Of a DNA stretch of 37,495 nucleotides, positions 1 through 25,657 are shown piece by piece. Both the position numbers and the translations under genes were made by a program. Within the stretch, counting starts at the first letter, position 1. Each line of letters opens with the position of its first letter. The notes beneath the pieces were generated by a model that saw only the letters and a program-made list of their open reading frames with translations, searched no databases and was not told the DNA's origin. Source of the DNA: Candidatus Saccharimonadales bacterium (GTDB taxonomy: Bacteria; Patescibacteriota; WWE3; UBA101185; UBA10185); NCBI GenBank assembly GCA_035480775.1, contig DATIHK010000028.1:1-37495 (forward strand), written 5' to 3'.

Positions 1-1488
1 GATCCGAGTCCAGATCATCAACCGTATACTGCTGGTTATTCTTTTGTAACTAGTAAAAACATACTCTCTATTGGTTGTGATAGTAGTTCAAATCAATTTT
101 TCTGTTGGCCAGTTGACTTGTTGACTGCTGTTATTCAGGCAATTACATCTTTTTTTACAACAGGTTGGACGACTCACACAAATAACACCGCAGGCAAAAC
201 TTGCGGAGGTTTCAATCATACTCCTTCAGATAATGAATGTGCTTCGGGTGACATTAATTGCTCTTGTCTTAATGGAGTCATTACTGAAGATCCACAAACA
301 CTTAGACTTTCGTGTAGCGATCCTAACGGTTGGCATAAAACCCAAGTTTGGATTCAACAATATACCTGCTCAGGTGTAGTACAAACTAAACCTTTTATTG
401 TCGACAATAAACTTCCACTACCTATAAAAGGATTGGCAACAGGAATGCAAAATTTTTGTTTGGCACTTGGTATGGGGCCAGATGATGATAATACCGGTGC
501 ATTGGCTGGAGGTTCTATAGACGTTAATGCCACAAATCAAGCTAGTTTTAAAGAAGGCTTTGGTAGCGATGTAATCTGGGGTGAAGACATGAGTTATATA
601 GTTGACAAGTTTTGTTACAACGCCGAAGGTGATCCGGTTTTCGGTGGCCCAGTTTTTAAAGAACGCAATTTGTCTCAAGGTATCAGAAAAGCCCCTATAG
701 TTCCGGCTGAAGTCGGTGCTTGTTATTTGGGACGTACCGATGGAGGCTACGGAGAAATAACTGGCAGTTTGCCTGATTATTTAGTACAGATTTTGGAGCG
801 GGCAGCATTTGTAAACGACATTCCGGCGGCTCTTATGGTGTCGTACCTATATACAGAAGGCGCTTTCCATAAATATCCAGAATTATTTGACGATGGAGCT
901 GTAATGGCAGGAAGTGCTGAGGGGGCTACGTTTGGTAACTGCGATCCTACGGCTGCTAGTGCTCAAGGTCCATTTGACTGGTTAGATGCATATTGGAAAC
1001 CTCCTATTTCTGACGCAGTTAAAGATGACTTTCCAAATAGAACCCCATTTAGATGTAACTTGCTAGATCAAGCTTATGCTACGGCTAAGAGACTAGCCCA
1101 ATCAGCACAAGGTGCCGGTAGTTATGGACATAATGACTGCGTTGGAGGTGTAAACTGTAATAAATGTTACGGTTTTGAGTATTCAAGTACTCGTGGATCT
1201 TGTGAACATTGGACTATACAAAATACTATATCAGCTTCCAGAGGAATTGCTGGTTTTTGTTGGGATAACCAGTTTTCTGCTGCAGGTGGAGGAAATTATG
1301 CTAATCCAGATTGTTCTCATAAAGATCCTACAACCGGCCAGAGAGTAACTACGACCCCAGATCTTTGTCGCGAAACTTACCAAAATTGTTCAACAGGCTT
1401 GAATGCACACGATCCACCCAACTACTGCTCGAGTCTTCAGTACAGCTTTAACAATATCTTTGAGAGATACAAAAACCCAGCACAATAA
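1..1488 (+). CDS. Cysteine-rich extracellular protein, 5'-truncated by the window edge
   Basis: Frame 1 has no stop codon from nt 1 to 117. The track ORF 118..1488 (TTG start) is therefore probably the tail of a longer CDS. There are 22 Cys in the 495 visible codons and no TM segment. A weak lysozyme/SLT-like stretch is present (YTEGAF ... AQGPFDW). Function unknown. Confidence 0.6.
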   Translation, partial: DPSPDHQPYTAGYSFVTSKNILSIGCDSSSNQFFCWPVDLLTAVIQAITSFFTTGWTTHTNNTAGKTCGGFNHTPSDNECASGDINCSCLNGVITEDPQTLRLSCSDPNGWHKTQVWIQQYTCSGVVQTKPFIVDNKLPLPIKGLATGMQNFCLALGMGPDDDNTGALAGGSIDVNATNQASFKEGFGSDVIWGEDMSYIVDKFCYNAEGDPVFGGPVFKERNLSQGIRKAPIVPAEVGACYLGRTDGGYGEITGSLPDYLVQILERAAFVNDIPAALMVSYLYTEGAFHKYPELFDDGAVMAGSAEGATFGNCDPTAASAQGPFDWLDAYWKPPISDAVKDDFPNRTPFRCNLLDQAYATAKRLAQSAQGAGSYGHNDCVGGVNCNKCYGFEYSSTRGSCEHWTIQNTISASRGIAGFCWDNQFSAAGGGNYANPDCSHKDPTTGQRVTTTPDLCRETYQNCSTGLNAHDPPNYCSSLQYSFNNIFERYKNPAQ

Positions 1489-1832: not shown

Positions 1833-2575
1833 TGTTAAAAGTTAAAAATCTACACGTAAATATTGGTGATAAAGAAATTCTTAAAGGAGTAGATTTAGAA
1901 TTTGCTCCCAATAAAGTTTACGCTCTGATGGGGCAAAACGGTTCTGGAAAAAGTACTTTGGCACAAGCTTTAATGGGACACCCACAATATCTTGTAACAA
2001 GTGGAAGTGTTGTATTTGGCGGCAAAAATTTACTGGAACTAGATCCAACTTCTCGTGGTCGCGAAGGAATATTTTTGTCTTTTCAATATCCCAGTGAAAT
2101 TCCTGGAGTTACGATTTCGAGCTTTTTGCGAATGATTTACAACAAAAGCCACAACACAAATATGACCCCAGTAAATTTCCGCAAATTACTAAAAGAAAAA
2201 ATGGAAATGCTCGATATCAAAGAAGATTTTATGAACCGCTATTTAAACGATGGATTTTCTGGAGGCGAAAAAAAGCGAATGGAAATGTTACAGATGTTGG
2301 TTTTAGAACCAAAATTGGCGATTCTCGACGAGACCGATAGTGGACTAGATATAGATGCTCTAAATATTGTTGCCAAAGCGGTAAACAGTCTTAAAGACCA
2401 GACTAAAATGACAGTTTTAATAATTACTCACTACACACGAATTTTAGAACATATTGTTCCAGACGAAGTTTTGGTTATGCAAGATGGGCAAATTGTTAAG
2501 AAAGGCGGAAAAGAACTCGCGCATGAACTTGAAGCAAAAGGTTATGCTGAGTACGCTCCGGTGGTAAATGGGTAA
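1832..2575 (+). CDS. sufC: Fe-S cluster assembly ATPase SufC
   Basis: Walker [13 protein letters not shown] signature FSGGEKKR, and Walker [14 protein letters not shown] chose the internal ATG at 1832 (MLKVKNLHV...) over the track start at 1799. Confidence 0.93.
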
Positions 2576-9091: not shown

Positions 9092-9222
9092 AAATATTCA
9101 ATTTCTTTCTAGGGGCATGGAACCAACCATATTATATGCTATTTGCGCGGTTAAGGCAAATCCTATAGGTCAGGTTAACATCAAGCTTGATATTAGTCAA
9201 CGATTTGTTTACAATAGCCATA

Positions 9223-9594
9223 ATGTCTATGCCTGCTCAGTTAAAATATATAGTCCTATCTATACTTTTTGTGTTGGCCTCGGTCAATTTTACGCGTACA
9301 GCGCTTGATATAGTGCAAAATAGTAAAAGACTAGAAGATCTGCATTCTGATGTTGCCTCTTTACAAAAGCAACAAAGCGACTTAAACGCCTCTATATCCT
9401 ATAAGCAGTCAGTAGACTATATTGAAGAGCGCGCTCGGGATGCCCTAAATTTGATTAAACCTAACGAACAAGCTTTTGTGGTTCCCCAAGGCGCTGGAGT
9501 TTTAGCCGCCGAAGACACTAAGCCGGTTATTTTAAGTACGAAACAGAAACAAGCCTCTAATTTTCAAATGTGGATGCAGCTTTTTCTTAACTAA
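9223..9594 (+). CDS. Septum formation initiator (FtsB/DivIC-like)
   Basis: Single N-terminal TM helix plus a coiled coil (LEDLHSDVASLQKQQSDLN) and YIEERARDALNLIKPNE. I chose the ATG at 9223, which is preceded by TTGATA-17-TACAAT-7 nt (leaderless geometry). Confidence 0.7.
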   Translation: MSMPAQLKYIVLSILFVLASVNFTRTALDIVQNSKRLEDLHSDVASLQKQQSDLNASISYKQSVDYIEERARDALNLIKPNEQAFVVPQGAGVLAAEDTKPVILSTKQKQASNFQMWMQLFLN

Positions 9595-19504: not shown

Positions 19505-20370
19505 GCCTCGTTAGCGCTGCCAAACAATTTAATTTTTCGCTCAACTACATCTTGCACAGCTTTTATAGCATCTGGAGTTATTTTATAAATTGCGATTTCG
19601 TTGCTCGCATTGATGCTTTGTTGCAAGGTCATTTTAAAAGCAATTCTCATTTCTGAATTGATATTTACTTTAACGATGCCCATTTTAATCGCAGCTCGAA
19701 CGTCATCGTCGTGAATCCCCGAGCCCCCATGCAATGAAAAAAGCGTATTGGGTAGTGCTTCGGTTATTTTTTTAAACACATTTAAATCTAGTCGCTTTTC
19801 GGTAGCATAAATTCCGTGCGAATTGCCTATAAAACTGGCTAAAACGTCGACTCCGGTTTTGGCAACAAATTCTTTAGCTTGTTCTGGATTGGTATAGTAT
19901 TCGGCTTTATTAAATTGTGTAGCATCTTCTTTAGTATGATCAGCTGAACTTCCTGCAATATGAGTAAATTCTCCTTCGACTGGTAAGCCTTTTGCGTGAG
20001 CTAGTTTTACGACTTCAGTACAAATTTTTATATTTTCTTCAAAAGCGAATTTACTTCCATCAAAGTGAATATAGTCAAAGCCAGCTTCTATTGCAGATTT
20101 GCAGGCGTCAAAATCTTTTCCGTGATCTAAATTTAAAATTATCGGAATATTTAGTTCTTCTTGATAAATCTTTTTGATAGCAACTAACTGTGCCATTCCA
20201 ATATAATTTACTTCACCATCGGATGCTTCTAAAATCACAGGGGAATTGAGCTTTTTTGCGGCCTGAGTTATCGCTTTTATAGTTTCTGTGTTTGCAGCAT
20301 TAAAAGCTCCAATAGCATAACCATTTTTTCTGGCGTGCATTATTAGAGCTTTAGCATTTGTGTTCATCAT
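19501..20370 (-). CDS. fba: Class II fructose/tagatose-bisphosphate aldolase
   Basis: GYAIGAFN, LNLDHGKDF and SLHGGSGI motifs of class II ketose-bisphosphate aldolases. Confidence 0.9.
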   Translation of the reverse strand: MMNTNAKALIMHARKNGYAIGAFNAANTETIKAITQAAKKLNSPVILEASDGEVNYIGMAQLVAIKKIYQEELNIPIILNLDHGKDFDACKSAIEAGFDYIHFDGSKFAFEENIKICTEVVKLAHAKGLPVEGEFTHIAGSSADHTKEDATQFNKAEYYTNPEQAKEFVAKTGVDVLASFIGNSHGIYATEKRLDLNVFKKITEALPNTLFSLHGGSGIHDDDVRAAIKMGIVKVNINSEMRIAFKMTLQQSINASNEIAIYKITPDAIKAVQDVVERKIKLFGSANEA

Positions 20371-21341
20371 AAATTTGTACTTTCTAGTTTGACACTTTTT
20401 ACTAATTCTTCAATTTCAGGTCTGGATCGCAATCCATTAACGCCACCGATTTTTGTTGTTTTTCCTTGTGCGTTAAAATCTCCCCATTTCATAGCTTCTT
20501 CAAGAGATTTGCCGTAAATTATTGCCGATAAAAATCCTGAAGAATAAGCATCTCCAACCCCGGTTTTATCGACTACTTCGTCTTTGGTTTTATACGCGTC
20601 CATGTGTAAAAAAGTTTTGCCGTCGTATGTGGAAGCTCCATTTTCTCCATCAGTTATAACTGTAAGTTTGGCGCCGATTTTATGGAGTTCTGTATGCAAT
20701 TCTTTTGTGGAATGTTTTCCAACTATTCGAGTAGCCTCTTCGGTATTTACTAATAGAACATCCGTTATTTTCACAAATTGTTTTACTGCTTCGATATTTT
20801 TTAATTGTGATGAACCGGGATTAAATGCTACGCCGGTTTGTGGATTTGCTTTAAGGTAATCTATTAATTCGTTTTGAAATTTCTCAAATCCTGGTGCGAG
20901 TGTAGAGTAGTGAATCCAGCGTGGTACGGGCCAATCATATATTTTGTAATTTCGCTCTTTGTGATATGAAAATATTGTGCGATCACCTCCGGCTACAATA
21001 ACGGCGTGCACATTCGTAGCAGTTCCGGGATTTTTGATGCAAAACTTAGTATCAATGCCAAATTCTTTAAATTCATTTATAAATTTGTTGGCGTTATCGT
21101 CGTCACCAAGTTCGGTGTAAATAGAAGTATTTAACCCTAGCTTTTCGCAGCCAATTGCAAGATGACAAGAATTTCCAGCAGGCGATGAAAAAAAGCTTTC
21201 AACCGGAATTTTACTTCCATGCAAAAAACACATTTTAGGATGATCTGAATGAGTGAGCTCGACTGAACCTAAATCAACCTTCATATAAAGGTCAACTGAA
21301 CAATCGCCGATGCATAATAAATCGAGTGAAGAGTTGGGCAT
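20367..21341 (-). CDS. PfkB-family sugar(-phosphate) kinase
   Basis: Ribokinase-like fold with the C-terminal anion-hole motif DKTGVGDAYSSGF. ATGA overlap with fba suggests a phosphofructokinase-type role (inference). Confidence 0.85.
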   Translation of the reverse strand: MPNSSLDLLCIGDCSVDLYMKVDLGSVELTHSDHPKMCFLHGSKIPVESFFSSPAGNSCHLAIGCEKLGLNTSIYTELGDDDNANKFINEFKEFGIDTKFCIKNPGTATNVHAVIVAGGDRTIFSYHKERNYKIYDWPVPRWIHYSTLAPGFEKFQNELIDYLKANPQTGVAFNPGSSQLKNIEAVKQFVKITDVLLVNTEEATRIVGKHSTKELHTELHKIGAKLTVITDGENGASTYDGKTFLHMDAYKTKDEVVDKTGVGDAYSSGFLSAIIYGKSLEEAMKWGDFNAQGKTTKIGGVNGLRSRPEIEELVKSVKLESTNL

Positions 21342-21424
21342 TAGCTTTAGTTTAGTTTATCTGACTTTGGGATGCAATTGCTTGGGGGTATAATCGCTAT
21401 AACCGTGAACCAACAGAGGACACT

Positions 21425-21733
21425 ATGGATACTAATGCCAATAGTTTGGCAGTAGTGGTTCGCTATTATCAAATCTATCTTCAATGTGTCGAAGGATCAC
21501 ATAAAGGTAGTTATGCCTTGTTCGACCGCGCGGGTTCTGGCAGCACCCGATTTGTAAAAGATCGAAAAAAGGCATCAAGATTATCGTGGCGACACCACCC
21601 GAATGTGACAGATAAAAGAGTCGCTCGAAAAGCACTTAGAGCTTTGGCATTTGCTTTCAAAGCTGGTAATATCGTGCATTTTGGCGACCTAAACCGTTAC
21701 GATAAGCCTGGATTAAAGGCAAAAGGAGGCTGA
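21425..21733 (+). CDS. Hypothetical protein (cassette C, paralog 1)
   Basis: 102 aa. Shares IYLQCVEGSHKGSYALF ... HFGDLN with the next ORF (VFLQVMEGSLRGYFLTL ... NWGTLN). TTGGGA-16-TATAAT lies upstream at 21367-21394. Confidence 0.6.
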   Translation: MDTNANSLAVVVRYYQIYLQCVEGSHKGSYALFDRAGSGSTRFVKDRKKASRLSWRHHPNVTDKRVARKALRALAFAFKAGNIVHFGDLNRYDKPGLKAKGG

Positions 21734-21734
21734 C

Positions 21735-22040
21735 ATGTCCGGAGGAAGCAATGGTCTGCACGAACTCAAGTTGCAAGTAATGAATCGTGGGGTCACCGTG
21801 TTTTTGCAAGTAATGGAAGGAAGTCTTAGAGGTTATTTCTTAACATTGTACGGCGACCGTGGCAGCTTTATTTCATCGTTTGTTGGTGCCACCCAGTGGA
21901 CATTAACGAAAGACAATGCACAAGAGCTCGTGATCAAGATTTTGAAAGAAGTAGAAAGCAGTTTTCCTGGATCAGTAGTTTCAAATTGGGGCACTTTGAA
22001 TTCTGCACACACAGAGTTGGAAAAAGTCACTAAACAATGA
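21735..22040 (+). CDS. Hypothetical protein (cassette C, paralog 2)
   Basis: 101 aa, with AAGGAGG at 21723-21729. Paralogous to 21425..21733 by eye alignment. Confidence 0.6.
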   Translation: MSGGSNGLHELKLQVMNRGVTVFLQVMEGSLRGYFLTLYGDRGSFISSFVGATQWTLTKDNAQELVIKILKEVESSFPGSVVSNWGTLNSAHTELEKVTKQ

Positions 22041-22270
22041 CCAATCCAACACCACAGACAAGAATTTTGAAAAGTGAGGATGGTTGCTATAACATTGTTC
22101 AGGGTAATTTGCTTTTAATAAATGCCAGAAGTTCGCGTCCGATAGCTGTTCGCGATGGTCCGTATCTAATTGGGAATCTGATTCATGTCATTTCTGAGTT
22201 GGGAATCGATCCGGATTCTGTTGATTGGGGAGAACTCTCACAGTCATACTTCACTCACATGGAAGCTTAG
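22037..22270 (+). CDS. Hypothetical protein (cassette C, ORF 3, possible distant paralog)
   Basis: 77 aa. ATGA overlap with the previous ORF. The C-terminal DWGELS resembles FGDLN/WGTLN in the two upstream ORFs. Confidence 0.55.
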   Translation: MTNPTPQTRILKSEDGCYNIVQGNLLLINARSSRPIAVRDGPYLIGNLIHVISELGIDPDSVDWGELSQSYFTHMEA

Positions 22271-22286
22271 TATCTTTGATTGTCAC

Positions 22287-22334
22287 AGCGGTCGATTTGT
22301 TCTCATCTCTTGAGGCATTTCGGTCGCTTTTTTT
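22287..22334 (+). terminator. Intrinsic terminator ending cassette C
   Basis: Stem agcggtcg / cggtcgct (two G-U pairs) with an inner ctca/tgag hairpin, followed by TTTTTTT at 22328-22334. It abuts the convergent tkt C-subunit stop. Confidence 0.6.
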
Positions 22335-23373
22335 ATACTAACTTAAATTCACCAGGGACGTCGGTGCTTAAATCACCGGTTGCAAATCTTCCACCGATTT
22401 TATTCATTTCTAAAATGGCTAGTTCAATAGCTTTTTGACCTAGTCCATATTTTTCTAACAGCTCATCATAGCTACCAGATTCACCAAAAGTATCTTTTGC
22501 TCCCATTCTTCTAAGTGGAACAGGCATTTTTTCGGTCAGTAATTCGGCAACAGCTCCACCTAGTCCACCAGAAATTTGATGCTCTTCAATGGTAATAACT
22601 TTGCGGGTTTTGCTGACTGATTTCAAAATTGTTTCGCTGTCTAAAGGTTTTATAGTGGAGCAGTTTATAACGTCGCATCTAATTCCTCGGGCGTCTAGTC
22701 TATTAGCAACTTGCAGTGCACTTCTTAGTAACGGGCCGCAACAAATTACTGTAACGTGTTCGCCCTCCATCAAAACTTGTGCTTTACCAATTTCAAATGG
22801 AGTGTGAGAAGTTGTTATATGTGGAGTTGCTTCGCGCGTTAATCGTAAATAAACTGGTCCGACATGATTTGCAGCAGCCAGCGTAGCCTTTTTAGCTTCT
22901 TCATAATCACAAGGAACAATTACTGTCATATTTGGAAGTACCCGCATTAAAGCAATATCTTCTAAAGCTTGATGTGTCGCTCCATCGGGTCCATCTGAAA
23001 ATCCACTATGAGATCCTACAATTTTTACATTTGCGTTGGTATAACAGATTGAAGTTCTAACTTGTAGCCAATTAAGTCCTGCATCAAAAACGCTGTACGA
23101 TGCCATAAACGGAATTTTACCGCTCAGCGCAAGTCCTGCTGCTATTCCGGTCATGTTTTGTTCTGCTACTCCCAGTTCGGCAAATCTATCTGGAAAGCGT
23201 TTTTCAAATAGGTGACTATGGGTGGATTCTGCGAGGTCGGCAGTTAAAACTACGATCTCGCTATTTTTTTCTCCGGCTAAAACCACGCCATCACCATAAC
23301 CAAAGCGTGTGGGAACTTTTTCCACATCGGTATCAAAAATGTTTGGACTTAATTTTAAATCTTGATTCAACAT
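22333..23373 (-). CDS. tkt: Transketolase, C-terminal (pyrimidine-binding plus C-terminal domain) subunit
   Basis: GVAEQNMTGIAAGLALSGKIPFMASYSVF, and a 346-aa length typical of split transketolase subunit B. Confidence 0.92.
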   Translation of the reverse strand: MLNQDLKLSPNIFDTDVEKVPTRFGYGDGVVLAGEKNSEIVVLTADLAESTHSHLFEKRFPDRFAELGVAEQNMTGIAAGLALSGKIPFMASYSVFDAGLNWLQVRTSICYTNANVKIVGSHSGFSDGPDGATHQALEDIALMRVLPNMTVIVPCDYEEAKKATLAAANHVGPVYLRLTREATPHITTSHTPFEIGKAQVLMEGEHVTVICCGPLLRSALQVANRLDARGIRCDVINCSTIKPLDSETILKSVSKTRKVITIEEHQISGGLGGAVAELLTEKMPVPLRRMGAKDTFGESGSYDELLEKYGLGQKAIELAILEMNKIGGRFATGDLSTDVPGEFKLV

Positions 23374-23918
23374 TATTGAGGCTTACACGGTTGCGCTTTT
23401 CTAATAACATCAAACGCAATTTTCCAGTCCGTTTTACTTATCGCTACCAAATCTACTGCAACATTTGGACCGGTTTCTAGTACACAATTTTCTCCCAAAT
23501 CAATTTGCTCAATTGAGACAATAAGACTCTTGTCTGTTTTATCCGAGTAAACTTTTCTAACTTTAACTGTAGATTTTTTTACAGTTTGAGATTGAGTCGC
23601 GACCCCTAAAATATATTCTTTATTAAAGTCCACTTTATCATTTAGAGTGAGCTTACCAGTGCTGTCGACTGTGTTTAAGAAAGCAGCCAACTCTTGATCA
23701 TTATGAATTACTACTCTTTGTTTACTAATGCTAACAGTTGAATCAATATCAACTGGAAAGCCATTTAGTCTTCTCACTTCAGGTTCTTTGTTAAGGAGTT
23801 TAGAAATATTTATATCTCCTGACATTAATAAATATCCGGCACCGAGAATAAGCAAAACCAAAAGCACTACAGGCAATAGACTTATGTTAAAAAGATTAGT
23901 TGGCTTAGTCATATTCAC
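23373..23918 (-). CDS. Signal-anchored hypothetical protein interposed between the transketolase subunit genes
   Basis: N-terminal TM helix (ISLLPVVLLVLLILGAGYLL) plus a 140-aa soluble domain. It overlaps both tkt subunit genes (14 nt and 1 nt). Confidence 0.6.
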   Translation of the reverse strand: MNMTKPTNLFNISLLPVVLLVLLILGAGYLLMSGDINISKLLNKEPEVRRLNGFPVDIDSTVSISKQRVVIHNDQELAAFLNTVDSTGKLTLNDKVDFNKEYILGVATQSQTVKKSTVKVRKVYSDKTDKSLIVSIEQIDLGENCVLETGPNVAVDLVAISKTDWKIAFDVIRKAQPCKPQ

Positions 23919-24777: not shown

Positions 24778-24806
24778 TGGTGAAAGTATAGATTTTACAC
24801 TTCAAA

Positions 24807-24835
24807 TTGACAAGCGGTTGTAGAAACCGTAAAAT
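24807..24835 (+). promoter_or_regulatory. Near-consensus sigma70 promoter TTGACA-17-TAAAAT driving the GC-rich unit
   Basis: TTGACA at 24807-24812, a 17-nt spacer, and TAAAT-type hexamer TAAAAT at 24830-24835. It is divergent from the tkt promoter. Confidence 0.5.
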
Positions 24836-25037
24836 TCCGGTATCAAATAACGAAAGGAGAGGCTATGCATAATGGTTAGTCGGATCACGGAGGCAATTGG
24901 TTAGAATAGGCGCTGCCGCGATTTCCAGCCGCTAGCCGCAACTATGCCAAGCACTGGTTACCGCGCCATCCCGACATAGTGATGCAGCCGGCATCACTGC
25001 CTTATTGGACGTGACCATGTTTTCCTGAGGAGGCCCG

Positions 25038-25184
25038 ATGCTCGAAATGCTCGTCGCAATGGCGCAAGCACTCGAAAGCACCGTGGTGCTGCAGCAAGAA
25101 ACCCAGAAGGCTATCCAGCCGTCTGAATCCGTTCGCGGATGGATGGTTTCATCGCTCAGCAACATGGATCGCCAGATACCCTGA
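25038..25184 (+). CDS. SD-led 48-aa micro-ORF in the GC-rich unit (coding status unproven)
   Basis: GAGGAGG at 25027-25033 lies 4 nt before the ATG. Translation: MLEMLVAMAQALESTVVLQQETQKAIQPSESVRGWMVSSLSNMDRQIP. It is below the ORF-track size cutoff. Confidence 0.35.
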   Translation: MLEMLVAMAQALESTVVLQQETQKAIQPSESVRGWMVSSLSNMDRQIP

Positions 25185-25298
25185 AGGGTTCCACCGCCTT
25201 TCAGTCCAAAACCGCTATGCATGTGTAGTGGATCTCACCTGAGCTTAGTTGAGATAGCGTAGCTAGGGAAGCAAAGCGAACATCTACAAGGAGGCACC

Positions 25299-25406
25299 AT
25301 GAAGACCGTCCAGACCCATGGAAAGTGGAATAACATCAATATCACCGCCAACACCTCCACCGGCGCCGGCCAGAGCCTGCGCACCGCGAACGTCAACATC
25401 GACTAG
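25299..25406 (+). CDS. SD-led 35-aa micro-ORF in the GC-rich unit (coding status unproven)
   Basis: AAGGAGG at 25288-25294 lies 4 nt before the ATG. Translation: MKTVQTHGKWNNINITANTSTGAGQSLRTANVNID. It is Asn/Thr-rich, with no Cys and no hydrophobic segment. Confidence 0.4.
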   Translation: MKTVQTHGKWNNINITANTSTGAGQSLRTANVNID

Positions 25407-25556
25407 ATCCGCGGCGCGGCCTGAGCAACACGTGTAATACCCGGCGGCAGTCTCGGCCATCTTCGGCCCCTGTTTTATGGATCTTGGCCATCGGCCTAGA
25501 TGCCGCCGGCTTTGTACTTTGGTTTGATTGCCTTTGATGAAGTAGAATCTGATTTT

Positions 25557-25643
25557 GGCGCCGCAAGTTCCGACGAGACCACTCATCTCGCACGAGCTTC
25601 CGGCGCCCTTTTTTTACCACCTAAAGGTGGCAAGTTTTTTTTT
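25557..25643 (+). terminator. Tandem intrinsic terminators ending the GC-rich unit
   Basis: A long imperfect hairpin ggcgccg...cggcgcc (25557-25607) followed by TTTTTTT (25609-25615). Then ccacc-taaa-ggtgg (25617-25630), followed after 4 nt by T9 (25635-25643). Confidence 0.6.
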
Positions 25644-25657
25644 GAAAACTTTAAGTG

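What the first reader, a model, noticed from the sequence alone, without database searches (positions are those of the whole stretch)
21342..22334. Cassette C: three tandem, divergent paralogous small ORFs (102/101/77 aa) inserted antisense between pfkB and tkt
ORF 21425 and ORF 21735 share a clear pattern: xYLQCVEGSHKGSYALF / xFLQVMEGSLRGYFLTL near the N-terminus, and HFGDLN / NWGTLN near the C-terminus. The third ORF, coupled by ATGA, ends with a related DWGELS. G+C is about 50% (30/60 at 21481-21540). The unit has TTGGGA-16-TATAAT upstream and a T7 terminator that touches the convergent tkt stop. I recognised no known family. Tandem diversifying paralogs of about 100 aa are typical of immunity, antitoxin or anti-defence-type modules, but that reading is speculative.
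Basis: partly seen in the sequence, partly recalled or inferred. Interest (0 to 1): 0.62.

Follow-up and report, generated by a model that had tools for sequence, protein, structure and literature searches.

The report
Orphan three-gene cassette splitting a sugar operon
A roughly 1-kb stretch carrying its own start and stop signals and three small protein genes found nowhere else (two of them old copies of each other) sits backwards inside a conserved sugar-metabolism operon of an uncultured ultra-small bacterium (WWE3 group, part of the Candidate Phyla Radiation, CPR); it is a real but fairly ordinary lineage-specific add-on whose function is still unknown.

Summary
The three + strand ORFs are real: O1 21425-21733 (102 aa), O2 21735-22040 (101 aa), O3 22037-22270 (77 aa). 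They look protein-coding. Codon log-odds are positive only in the annotated frames. O1 and O2 have Shine-Dalgarno (SD) sites, and the junctions are a 1-nt gap and an ATGA overlap. A promoter-like site lies upstream and a convincing intrinsic terminator downstream.

O1 and O2 are true but old paralogs (about 26% identity, shuffle z about 7, synonymous sites saturated). O3 shows no significant similarity to either, so "three paralogs" is not shown. G+C is 42.6% against a genome mean of 36.8%, not 50%.

In about 18 of 24 related WWE3-class genomes, tktC and pfkB lie on the same strand 0-55 nt apart. Here 994 nt lie between them. The cassette is therefore an antisense insertion into a conserved operon junction.

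No homolog was found in any search: Pfam, PHROGs, PADLOC, NCBIfam, PDB, 1.84 billion representative proteins, metagenomes, viral contigs, or 134 genomes of the same class. AlphaFold models are of low confidence and match no known fold.

The cassette belongs to a genome-wide set of GC-elevated, SD-led orphan genes. The best reading is an acquired, moron-like small-protein operon. A conflict-type role (toxin-antitoxin-like or anti-phage) is only a guess.

The parts
21367..21394 (+). Sigma-70-like promoter candidate TTGGGA-16-TATAAT, about 30 nt upstream of the O1 start codon
   Evidence: matches 10 of 12 consensus positions. The position fits, but promoter-like sites are not significantly enriched in the region.
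21416..21420 (+). Shine-Dalgarno-like GAGGA, 4 nt before the O1 ATG
   Evidence: sequence read directly.
21425..21733 (+). O1: 102 aa, soluble, strongly basic (pI 10.4); paralog of O2
   Evidence: codon log-odds +0.19 in frame, -0.47 to -1.22 in the other five frames.
21724..21729 (+). Strong Shine-Dalgarno AGGAGG, 5 nt before the O2 ATG, lying inside the 3' end of O1
21735..22040 (+). O2: 101 aa, soluble, near-neutral (pI 6.7); paralog of O1. The low-confidence model is four beta strands followed by a long helix
   Evidence: log-odds +0.23; pLDDT 49.9.
22037..22270 (+). O3: 77 aa, soluble, acidic (pI 4.8); coupled to O2 by an ATGA overlap; not demonstrably related to O1 or O2
   Evidence: (log-odds +0.21).
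22287..22334 (+). Intrinsic terminator: a 42-nt hairpin plus a U7 tract. The tract overlaps the stop codon of the convergent tktC. The hairpin is much weaker on the - strand and has no U tract there
   Evidence: dG -18.3, z -3.36; dG -11.7.
22333..22400 (-). C-terminal tail of tktC, about 17-23 aa, absent from orthologues. It is possibly encoded by the right edge of the inserted DNA
   Evidence: C-termini compared by eye; relatives align only to residues 310-332 of 346. Inference.

Best explanation
Cassette C is an autonomous accessory operon that was inserted, in antisense orientation, into the tktC-pfkB junction. That junction belongs to an operon conserved across WWE3 (Patescibacteria/CPR) bacteria.

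Likely expression (inferred):
- Transcription probably starts at its own sigma-70-like promoter and ends at its own intrinsic terminator.
- The three genes are translated as a coupled unit: an SD site before O1, a strong SD before O2, and an ATGA overlap into O3.

Products: three small, soluble, cytoplasmic orphan proteins.
- O1 (basic) and O2 (neutral) are ancient paralogs with a predicted beta-meander plus helix layout.
- O3 (acidic) is an unrelated partner.
- The tight coupling suggests that they act together in fixed proportions, as a small-protein complex (inferred).

Origin (inferred): the unit most likely arrived already formed from an unsampled gene pool, such as a CPR phage or another mobile element, in the manner of phage 'morons'. 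It is one of many GC-elevated, SD-led orphan genes in this genome.

Function (guess, about 25-30% odds): a conflict-type role, such as a toxin-antitoxin-like or superinfection-exclusion/anti-phage module, with basic O1 as the nucleic-acid-binding effector. A metabolic link to the flanking sugar genes is unlikely.

Side effect (inferred): the insertion cuts direct tktC-to-pfkB coupling. It also sets up convergent transcription with the tkt operon, whose transcripts are probably not stopped by the cassette terminator.
For: Coding status:
- Codon log-odds are +0.19, +0.23 and +0.21 in the annotated frames and negative in all 15 other frames.
- ORF coverage of this extent arises in 0.8% of composition-matched simulations.
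- The SD sites and gene coupling are read from the sequence.
- No Rfam match at E<=1.

Paralogy.

Old duplication: pS 0.73 (saturated), pN 0.57.

Insertion:
- In about 18 of 24 relatives, tktC and pfkB are co-oriented and 0-55 nt apart. Here the gap is 994 nt.
- The junction is identical in four assemblies, including contigs from two separate runs.

Signals: promoter-like site; terminator, weaker on the other strand.

Orphan status.

Atypical composition:
- GC is 0.426 against a genome mean of 0.368.
- Synonymous codon usage scores +0.03, -0.05 and +0.10. Core genes score +0.23 +/- 0.09 and GC-rich island genes -0.24.

Class context:
- An SD 5-mer lies upstream of 36-62% of ORFs with GC 0.42-0.50, against 5-13% of low-GC ORFs.
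- Ten such ORFs have no Pfam hit.
- A second tandem paralog pair lies on contig C34.
- An unrelated antisense SD-led orphan ORF occupies the same junction in genome G068.

Charges.
Against: - No donor or homolog exists, so horizontal origin is inferred from composition and synteny only.
- The GC rise is modest, within the top 5-10% of native windows.
- SD sites also occur on native highly expressed genes such as L7/L12.
- No mobility signature is present: no terminal inverted repeats, target duplication, integrase or tRNA.
- Structure models are unreliable (pLDDT 40.6 and 49.9) and match no fold.
- Nothing positive supports a conflict function.
Confidence: 0.55

Rival explanations
1. The genes arose in place. 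The three ORFs emerged or diverged rapidly within this WWE3 lineage, by de novo birth from intergenic DNA followed by tandem duplication. They were not imported.
For: - No homolog exists anywhere, not even a distant one.
- Codon usage is partly host-like: the overall coding log-odds are positive with the host model.
- There are no mobility signatures.
- The genus has only this one genome, so unsampled close relatives could carry the cassette.
Against: - The paralogs are saturated at synonymous sites yet both frames are intact. This implies a long history that left no trace in 134 genomes of the same class.
- GC is elevated, synonymous codon usage is about 2 sd from core genes, and SD sites are present in a genome whose core genes mostly lack them.
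- The complete promoter and terminator set, and the antisense orientation inside a tight operon junction, fit insertion better than gradual birth in a 0-55 nt spacer.
Confidence: 0.15
2. The cassette is a bona fide toxin-antitoxin, immunity or anti-defence module. For example, basic O1 is the toxin, and O2 and/or acidic O3 neutralise it. Or it is an array of orphan immunity proteins.
For: - The sizes (77-102 aa), tight translational coupling and autonomous expression signals fit.
- The charges are opposite: pI 10.4, 6.7 and 4.8.
- The tandem divergent paralogs fit.
- O1 carries a GSH tripeptide at a predicted strand end, where O2 has GSL.
Against: - No hit in PADLOC, Pfam (including toxin-antitoxin and immunity-protein families), PHROGs or NCBIfam.
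- A profile comparison with WWE3 HicA proteins gives a probability of 0.5%.
- No toxin, polymorphic-toxin or defence gene is adjacent.
- True toxin-antitoxin and immunity families normally have many homologs, and here there are none.
Confidence: 0.2
3. The ORFs are not functional genes. The region would be a decaying remnant of inserted DNA, or a non-coding spacer or antisense regulatory RNA for the tkt-pfkB operon that happens to have open frames.
For: - There are no homologs, so no conservation test is possible.
- The only polymorphism seen between strains is non-synonymous (Arg to His in O3).
- AlphaFold confidence is low.
- tkt read-through would produce a long antisense RNA.
Against: - Frame-specific codon bias is present in all three ORFs.
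- The three abutting ORFs show operon-style coupling and SD sites.
- Paralogs remain recognisable at the protein level although synonymous sites are saturated.
- No Rfam family matches.
Confidence: 0.1

Closest known systems
Phage 'morons' (autonomous promoter-gene-terminator units inserted between conserved genes; Hendrix and colleagues, cited from my own knowledge)
   Same: It is a self-contained unit with a promoter-like site and an intrinsic terminator. It lies between two genes that are adjacent in relatives. Its composition differs from the flanks, and its content is accessory and unrelated to the neighbours.
   Different: It sits in a chromosomal core-metabolism operon of a CPR bacterium, not in a prophage. 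It lies antisense to the host operon. It carries three genes rather than one. No phage homolog is known.
Type II toxin-antitoxin operons (e.g. HicAB, tripartite toxin-antitoxin-chaperone systems)
   Same: The genes are small and translationally coupled, the proteins have opposite charge, and the unit is autonomous.
   Different: It matches no toxin-antitoxin family profile. The HicA comparison failed. Two of the components are paralogs of each other, which is not typical of toxin-antitoxin pairs.
Tandem arrays of orphan immunity genes in polymorphic-toxin loci
   Same: It has tandem, strongly diverged paralogs of about 100 aa.
   Different: No toxin gene or toxin-delivery context is present. 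No immunity-protein Pfam family matches. Only two copies exist, and there are no homologs in other genomes.
Lineage-specific bacterial small-protein (sORF/ORFan) operons, including the other GC-elevated cassettes of this same genome
   Same: The genes have GC above the genome mean, are SD-led, and have no Pfam domain. They lie between core genes, and tandem paralogy is seen again on contig C34.
   Different: It has no sequence similarity to any of the other cassettes.

Membership tests
HicA-like mRNA interferase toxin (PF07927) | Significant match to the HicA profile | tested here: not met
   Pfam scan of O1 and O2 at E<=10 gives no HicA hit. The family search of the own genome gives no match. 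hhalign of the O1/O2 profile against five WWE3 HicA proteins gives probability 0.5%, E=0.12.
HicA-like mRNA interferase toxin (PF07927) | Adjacent HicB-type antitoxin partner | tested here: not met
   O2 and O3 have no HicB, UPF0150 or DNA-binding domain hit.
Known anti-phage defence systems (PADLOC-DB v2) | Match of any component to a defence-system model | tested here: not met
   Zero families at E<=1 for all three proteins.
Polymorphic-toxin immunity proteins | Match to an immunity-protein family, and a toxin gene or toxin remnant upstream | tested here: not met
   No Pfam hit. The neighbours are pfkB and transketolase.
Moron-like autonomous insertion | Insertion between genes that are adjacent in relatives | tested here: met
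   The tktC-pfkB gap is 0-55 nt in about 18 of 24 relatives and 994 nt here.
Moron-like autonomous insertion | Own promoter and own terminator | tested here: inconclusive
   The terminator is convincing. The promoter is only a consensus match.
Moron-like autonomous insertion | Composition different from the host | tested here: met
   GC is 0.426 against 0.368. Synonymous codon usage is about 1.4-2.9 sd from core genes. The shift is moderate, not extreme.
Moron-like autonomous insertion | Resides in a phage or prophage genome | tested here: not met
   The flanks are core metabolic genes. No PHROG or phage match was found.
Integron gene cassette / IS / MITE | attC-like or terminal inverted repeats, target-site duplication, integrase or transposase nearby | tested here: not met
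   Only short repeats at chance level. The DNA is single-copy in the genome. No integrase-type gene lies within 10 kb on either side of the cassette.
Structured non-coding RNA | Match to an Rfam family | tested here: not met
   No match at the gathering score or at E<=1.

The most novel reading that the evidence does not exclude
O1/O2 and O3 may be founding members of new small-protein families. Together they would form a three-part conflict module, for example a basic effector, its inactivated paralog and an acidic neutraliser. The module would have been delivered by a so far unsampled mobile gene pool of CPR bacteria. The genome's GC-elevated, SD-led orphan cassettes would then mark a distinct imported 'expression regime' inside an otherwise SD-poor ultra-small genome.
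Probability: 0.15. Interest if true: 0.6.

Novelty: new member of a known kind. Interest (0 to 1): 0.3.

Why it matters
CPR/Patescibacteria genomes are tiny, and most of their accessory genes are uncharacterised. This case shows cleanly that a conserved pentose-phosphate/glycolysis operon can be split by an autonomous orphan cassette, and that the insertion is stable across independent assemblies. It adds one data point to a genome-wide pattern of GC-elevated, SD-led orphan genes. That pattern may trace an unknown donor pool, possibly CPR phages. On its own the cassette gives no functional insight. Its value is as a candidate for expression and interaction tests, and as a marker of gene flux in these bacteria.

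Tried and rejected
1. HicA-like toxin idea, prompted by a GSH tripeptide in O1. Rejected: no Pfam hit, and hhalign against five WWE3 HicA proteins gives probability 0.5%.
2. O3 as a third paralog. BLASTP, shuffle tests and hhalign are all non-significant.
3. The two extra hits of the exhaustive profile search (P0004, P0005). These are long repeat proteins that match a 25-35-residue motif 6-8 times. They are not homologs.
4. Two metagenome 'relatives' of O3 (L142, L143). These are antisense frames of a GC-rich phosphoglycerate-dehydrogenase gene and are spurious.
5. Fold searches with the O2 model against PDB and BFVD. Best E-values are 0.28 and 0.022 with TM about 0.35, and the model pLDDT is 49.9, so they are uninformative. 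PDB sequence searches returned only designed proteins.
6. Mobile-element signatures (inverted or direct terminal repeats, further copies in the genome). None found.
7. Similarity to the other cassettes of the window or genome, or to the G068 junction ORF. None found.
8. dN/dS between O1 and O2. Synonymous sites are saturated (pS 0.73), so the ratio is meaningless.
10. TGA read-through of the O1 stop codon. Read by eye, it would add only a short out-of-frame tail and would not fuse O1 to O2.

Full report
**What is there**

Window 21342-22334 lies between pfkB (20367-21341, − strand) and the C-terminal transketolase subunit gene tktC (22333-23373, − strand). It holds three abutting + strand ORFs:

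| ORF | Coordinates | Length |
|---|---|---|
| O1 | 21425-21733 | 102 aa |
| O2 | 21735-22040 | 101 aa |
| O3 | 22037-22270 | 77 aa |

- O1 ends 1 nt before the O2 start codon.
- O2 and O3 overlap by ATGA.
- GAGGA lies 4 nt before the O1 ATG, and AGGAGG lies 5 nt before the O2 ATG.
- TTGGGA-16-TATAAT lies at 21367-21394 and matches 10 of 12 consensus positions. The region as a whole is not significantly enriched in such sites, and an equally good one lies on the other strand.
- Downstream of O3, a 42-nt hairpin (dG -18.3 kcal/mol; 1 of 200 shuffles folds as well) is followed by U7. The U-run overlaps the tktC stop codon.
- On the − strand the same hairpin is weaker (-11.7) and has no U tract. 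tkt transcripts are therefore probably not stopped there. This is an inference.

**Are the ORFs genes?**

- I trained a codon model on 391 long ORFs of the same genome. It gives +0.19, +0.23 and +0.21 bits per codon in the three annotated frames, and -0.29 to -1.40 in the 15 other frames. Real genes average +0.33 (sd 0.12).
- ORF coverage of this extent appears in 0.8% of dinucleotide-matched simulations.
- No Rfam family matches, even at E<=1.
- The same sequence, with the same junctions, occurs in a 48-kb NCBI contig (GCA_964473275.1) and in Logan contigs of two separate runs. The only difference is one non-synonymous SNP in O3. The arrangement is therefore not an assembly artefact.
- I take the three as real protein-coding genes with odds of about 85-90%.

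**Paralogy**

- O1 and O2 align at 26-28% identity over their whole length: BLASTP E=4e-5; Smith-Waterman z=7.06 with 0 of 2000 shuffles reaching the score; z=6.5 on repeat.
- Each is among the other's best two or three non-self hits (E 0.58 and 0.96) across all 7571 six-frame ORFs of the genome.
- In the codon alignment, synonymous differences are saturated (pS 0.73) and pN is 0.57. The duplication is therefore old, and dN/dS cannot be estimated.
- O3 is not significantly similar to either: BLASTP E=0.21 or no alignment, z 0.9 and 1.1, and hhalign aligns only the ten-residue 'WG-L' stretch at E=0.16.

**Composition**

- The cassette has 42.6% G+C, with a 400-nt peak of 45%. The genome mean is 36.8%. 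This is the 90th-95th percentile of windows, not 50%.
- I scored synonymous codon usage as core genes versus GC-rich island genes. O1, O2 and O3 score +0.03, -0.05 and +0.10. Core genes score +0.23 +/- 0.09 and island genes -0.24 +/- 0.08. The flanking genes pfkB, tktC and fba score +0.18 to +0.20.
- The cassette is therefore atypical but not extreme.

**Insertion into a conserved junction**

- The genome is 0.92 Mb in 91 contigs and 95.5% complete.
- The genome belongs to the WWE3 lineage of Patescibacteria. Its family-level relatives carry contigs that are titled 'candidate division WWE3' in GenBank.
- In about 18 of 24 related genomes with both genes, tktC and pfkB are on the same strand and 0-55 nt apart, or overlapping. 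Here they are 994 nt apart, with the cassette antisense between them.

| Exception | What lies at the junction |
|---|---|
| G011 and G053 | A homologous small membrane ORF (81-85 aa) on the same strand |
| G068 | An unrelated antisense 129-aa orphan ORF with GGAGG 5 nt before its ATG |
| G067 | A gap of about 200 nt, not examined |
| G094 | The two genes are not adjacent |

- The junction has therefore been hit independently at least twice by SD-led antisense orphan genes.
- tktC of this genome is 17-23 aa longer at its C-terminus than the G068 and G011 orthologues. The insertion may have displaced the original stop codon. This is an inference.
- No terminal inverted repeats, target duplication, tRNA or integrase are present, and the DNA is single-copy.

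**Homology searches**

All searches were negative:

- Pfam, PHROGs, PADLOC and NCBIfam.
- The word-indexed search of 5.8 billion clusters, for each of the three proteins.
- An exhaustive HMMER profile search with O1+O2 over 1.84 billion representatives. The only other hits were two repeat proteins that match a short motif many times.
- Metagenome, genome and viral contig scans.
- tblastn of O3 against phages.
- PDB sequences.
- Six-frame searches of 86 family-level genomes with O1 and of 134 class-level genomes with O3 and with the O1/O2 profile.

AlphaFold2 models are poor. O1 has pLDDT 40.6 and O2 49.9, and both are predicted as three or four beta strands followed by a long helix. Foldseek finds nothing significant in PDB or BFVD.

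The proteins have no signal peptide or membrane segment by eye. Their pI values are 10.4, 6.7 and 4.8.

**Genome-wide context**

I tested a lead from earlier notes (e1-4479282, e1-3368168).

- The 16S rRNA has the normal CCTCCTT tail.
- Only 5-13% of low-GC ORFs have an SD 5-mer upstream (about 2% internal background). For ORFs with GC 0.42-0.50 the figure is 36-62%.
- Ten such SD-led GC-elevated ORFs have no Pfam domain at all.
- One other locus, C34:3601-4248, is again a tandem pair of small paralogs (z=7.2).
- Caveat: the native L7/L12 gene is also GC-elevated and SD-led. SD use is therefore not exclusive to imported genes.

**Interpretation**

Shown:
- A real three-gene unit with coupled genes and a convincing terminator.
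- Two ancient paralogs.
- An insertion into a conserved operon junction.
- Strict orphan status.
- Moderately atypical composition, shared with a class of similar genes in this genome.

Inferred:
- Acquisition as a ready-made unit from an unsampled donor. The paralogs are saturated at synonymous sites, yet no relative carries either copy.
- Action as a stoichiometric complex.
- Interference with tkt-to-pfkB co-transcription.

Guessed (about 25-30%):
- A conflict-type role, toxin-antitoxin-like or anti-phage.
- The one specific version I could test, HicA-like, failed.

**Limits**

- The exhaustive profile search covered O1/O2 only.
- The genus has a single genome, so the time of insertion cannot be bracketed.

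**Verdict**

The 'three paralogs' and '50% GC' claims are overstated, and the functional suggestion is untested. This is a new member of a known kind: a moron-like orphan small-protein cassette. Interest is modest.

Noticed in passing
window 22333-22400 (- strand): tktC carries a C-terminal tail of about 17-23 aa (…NKIGGRFATGDLSTDVPGEFKLV) that is absent from the G068 and G011 orthologues. It ends exactly at the cassette terminator. It may be read-through into inserted DNA.
   Followed up: partly
genome contig C34:3601-3921 (-) and C34:3973-4248 (-): This is a second tandem pair of SD-led, GC-elevated (0.43-0.45) small orphan ORFs (106 and 91 aa). They are paralogs of each other (shuffle z=7.2), have no Pfam hit, and are unrelated to O1-O3.
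   Followed up: partly
whole genome G000: The genome has 72 islands with GC>=0.44 against a mean of 0.368. ORFs with GC 0.42-0.50 are SD-led in 36-62% of cases, against 5-13% for low-GC ORFs. Ten of them that I tested have no Pfam domain. Contig C65:7701-15800 is an 8-kb island of about 50% GC with membrane proteins and an M23-peptidase-like motif. It could be a mobile element, a prophage or a mis-binned contig.
   Followed up: partly
L048 (G068:C1) 2049-2437 (+): An unrelated 129-aa orphan ORF with GGAGG 5 nt before its ATG lies antisense in the same tktC-pfkB junction of another WWE3 genus. This suggests the junction is a recurrent insertion spot.
   Followed up: partly
L045 (G011:C4) 2017-2262 (-) and L019 (G053:C107) 1013-1270 (+): A homologous small membrane ORF of about 81-85 aa (…KMLISMLFGTIAYSAGKLVVLA… and …KMLLSMFVGTVAYTIGKLAVLA…) lies between tktC and pfkB on the operon strand in two genera.
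   Followed up: no
window 23373-23918 (-): A 181-aa ORF with an N-terminal hydrophobic segment is wedged between the two transketolase subunit genes and overlaps both. The sister assembly also calls it, as 179 aa with no Pfam hit.
   Followed up: no
window 24778-25657: This stretch of about 0.85 kb has 53-56% G+C and no Rfam match at the gathering score. It lies between tktN and the LOG gene. An earlier report already covers it.
   Followed up: no
relatives' pfkB and tktC matches: Several related genomes show single in-frame TGA, TAG or TAA codons inside pfkB or tktC (for example G077, G085, G068, G064, G005). I did not check whether these are sequencing errors, pseudogenes or recoding.
   Followed up: no
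L005 about 9210-9310 (GCA_964473275.1 contig): A run of N about 100 nt long lies inside pfkB in the sister assembly as served. This explains why the gene is called as only 135 aa there. It is masking, not a real difference.
   Followed up: partly
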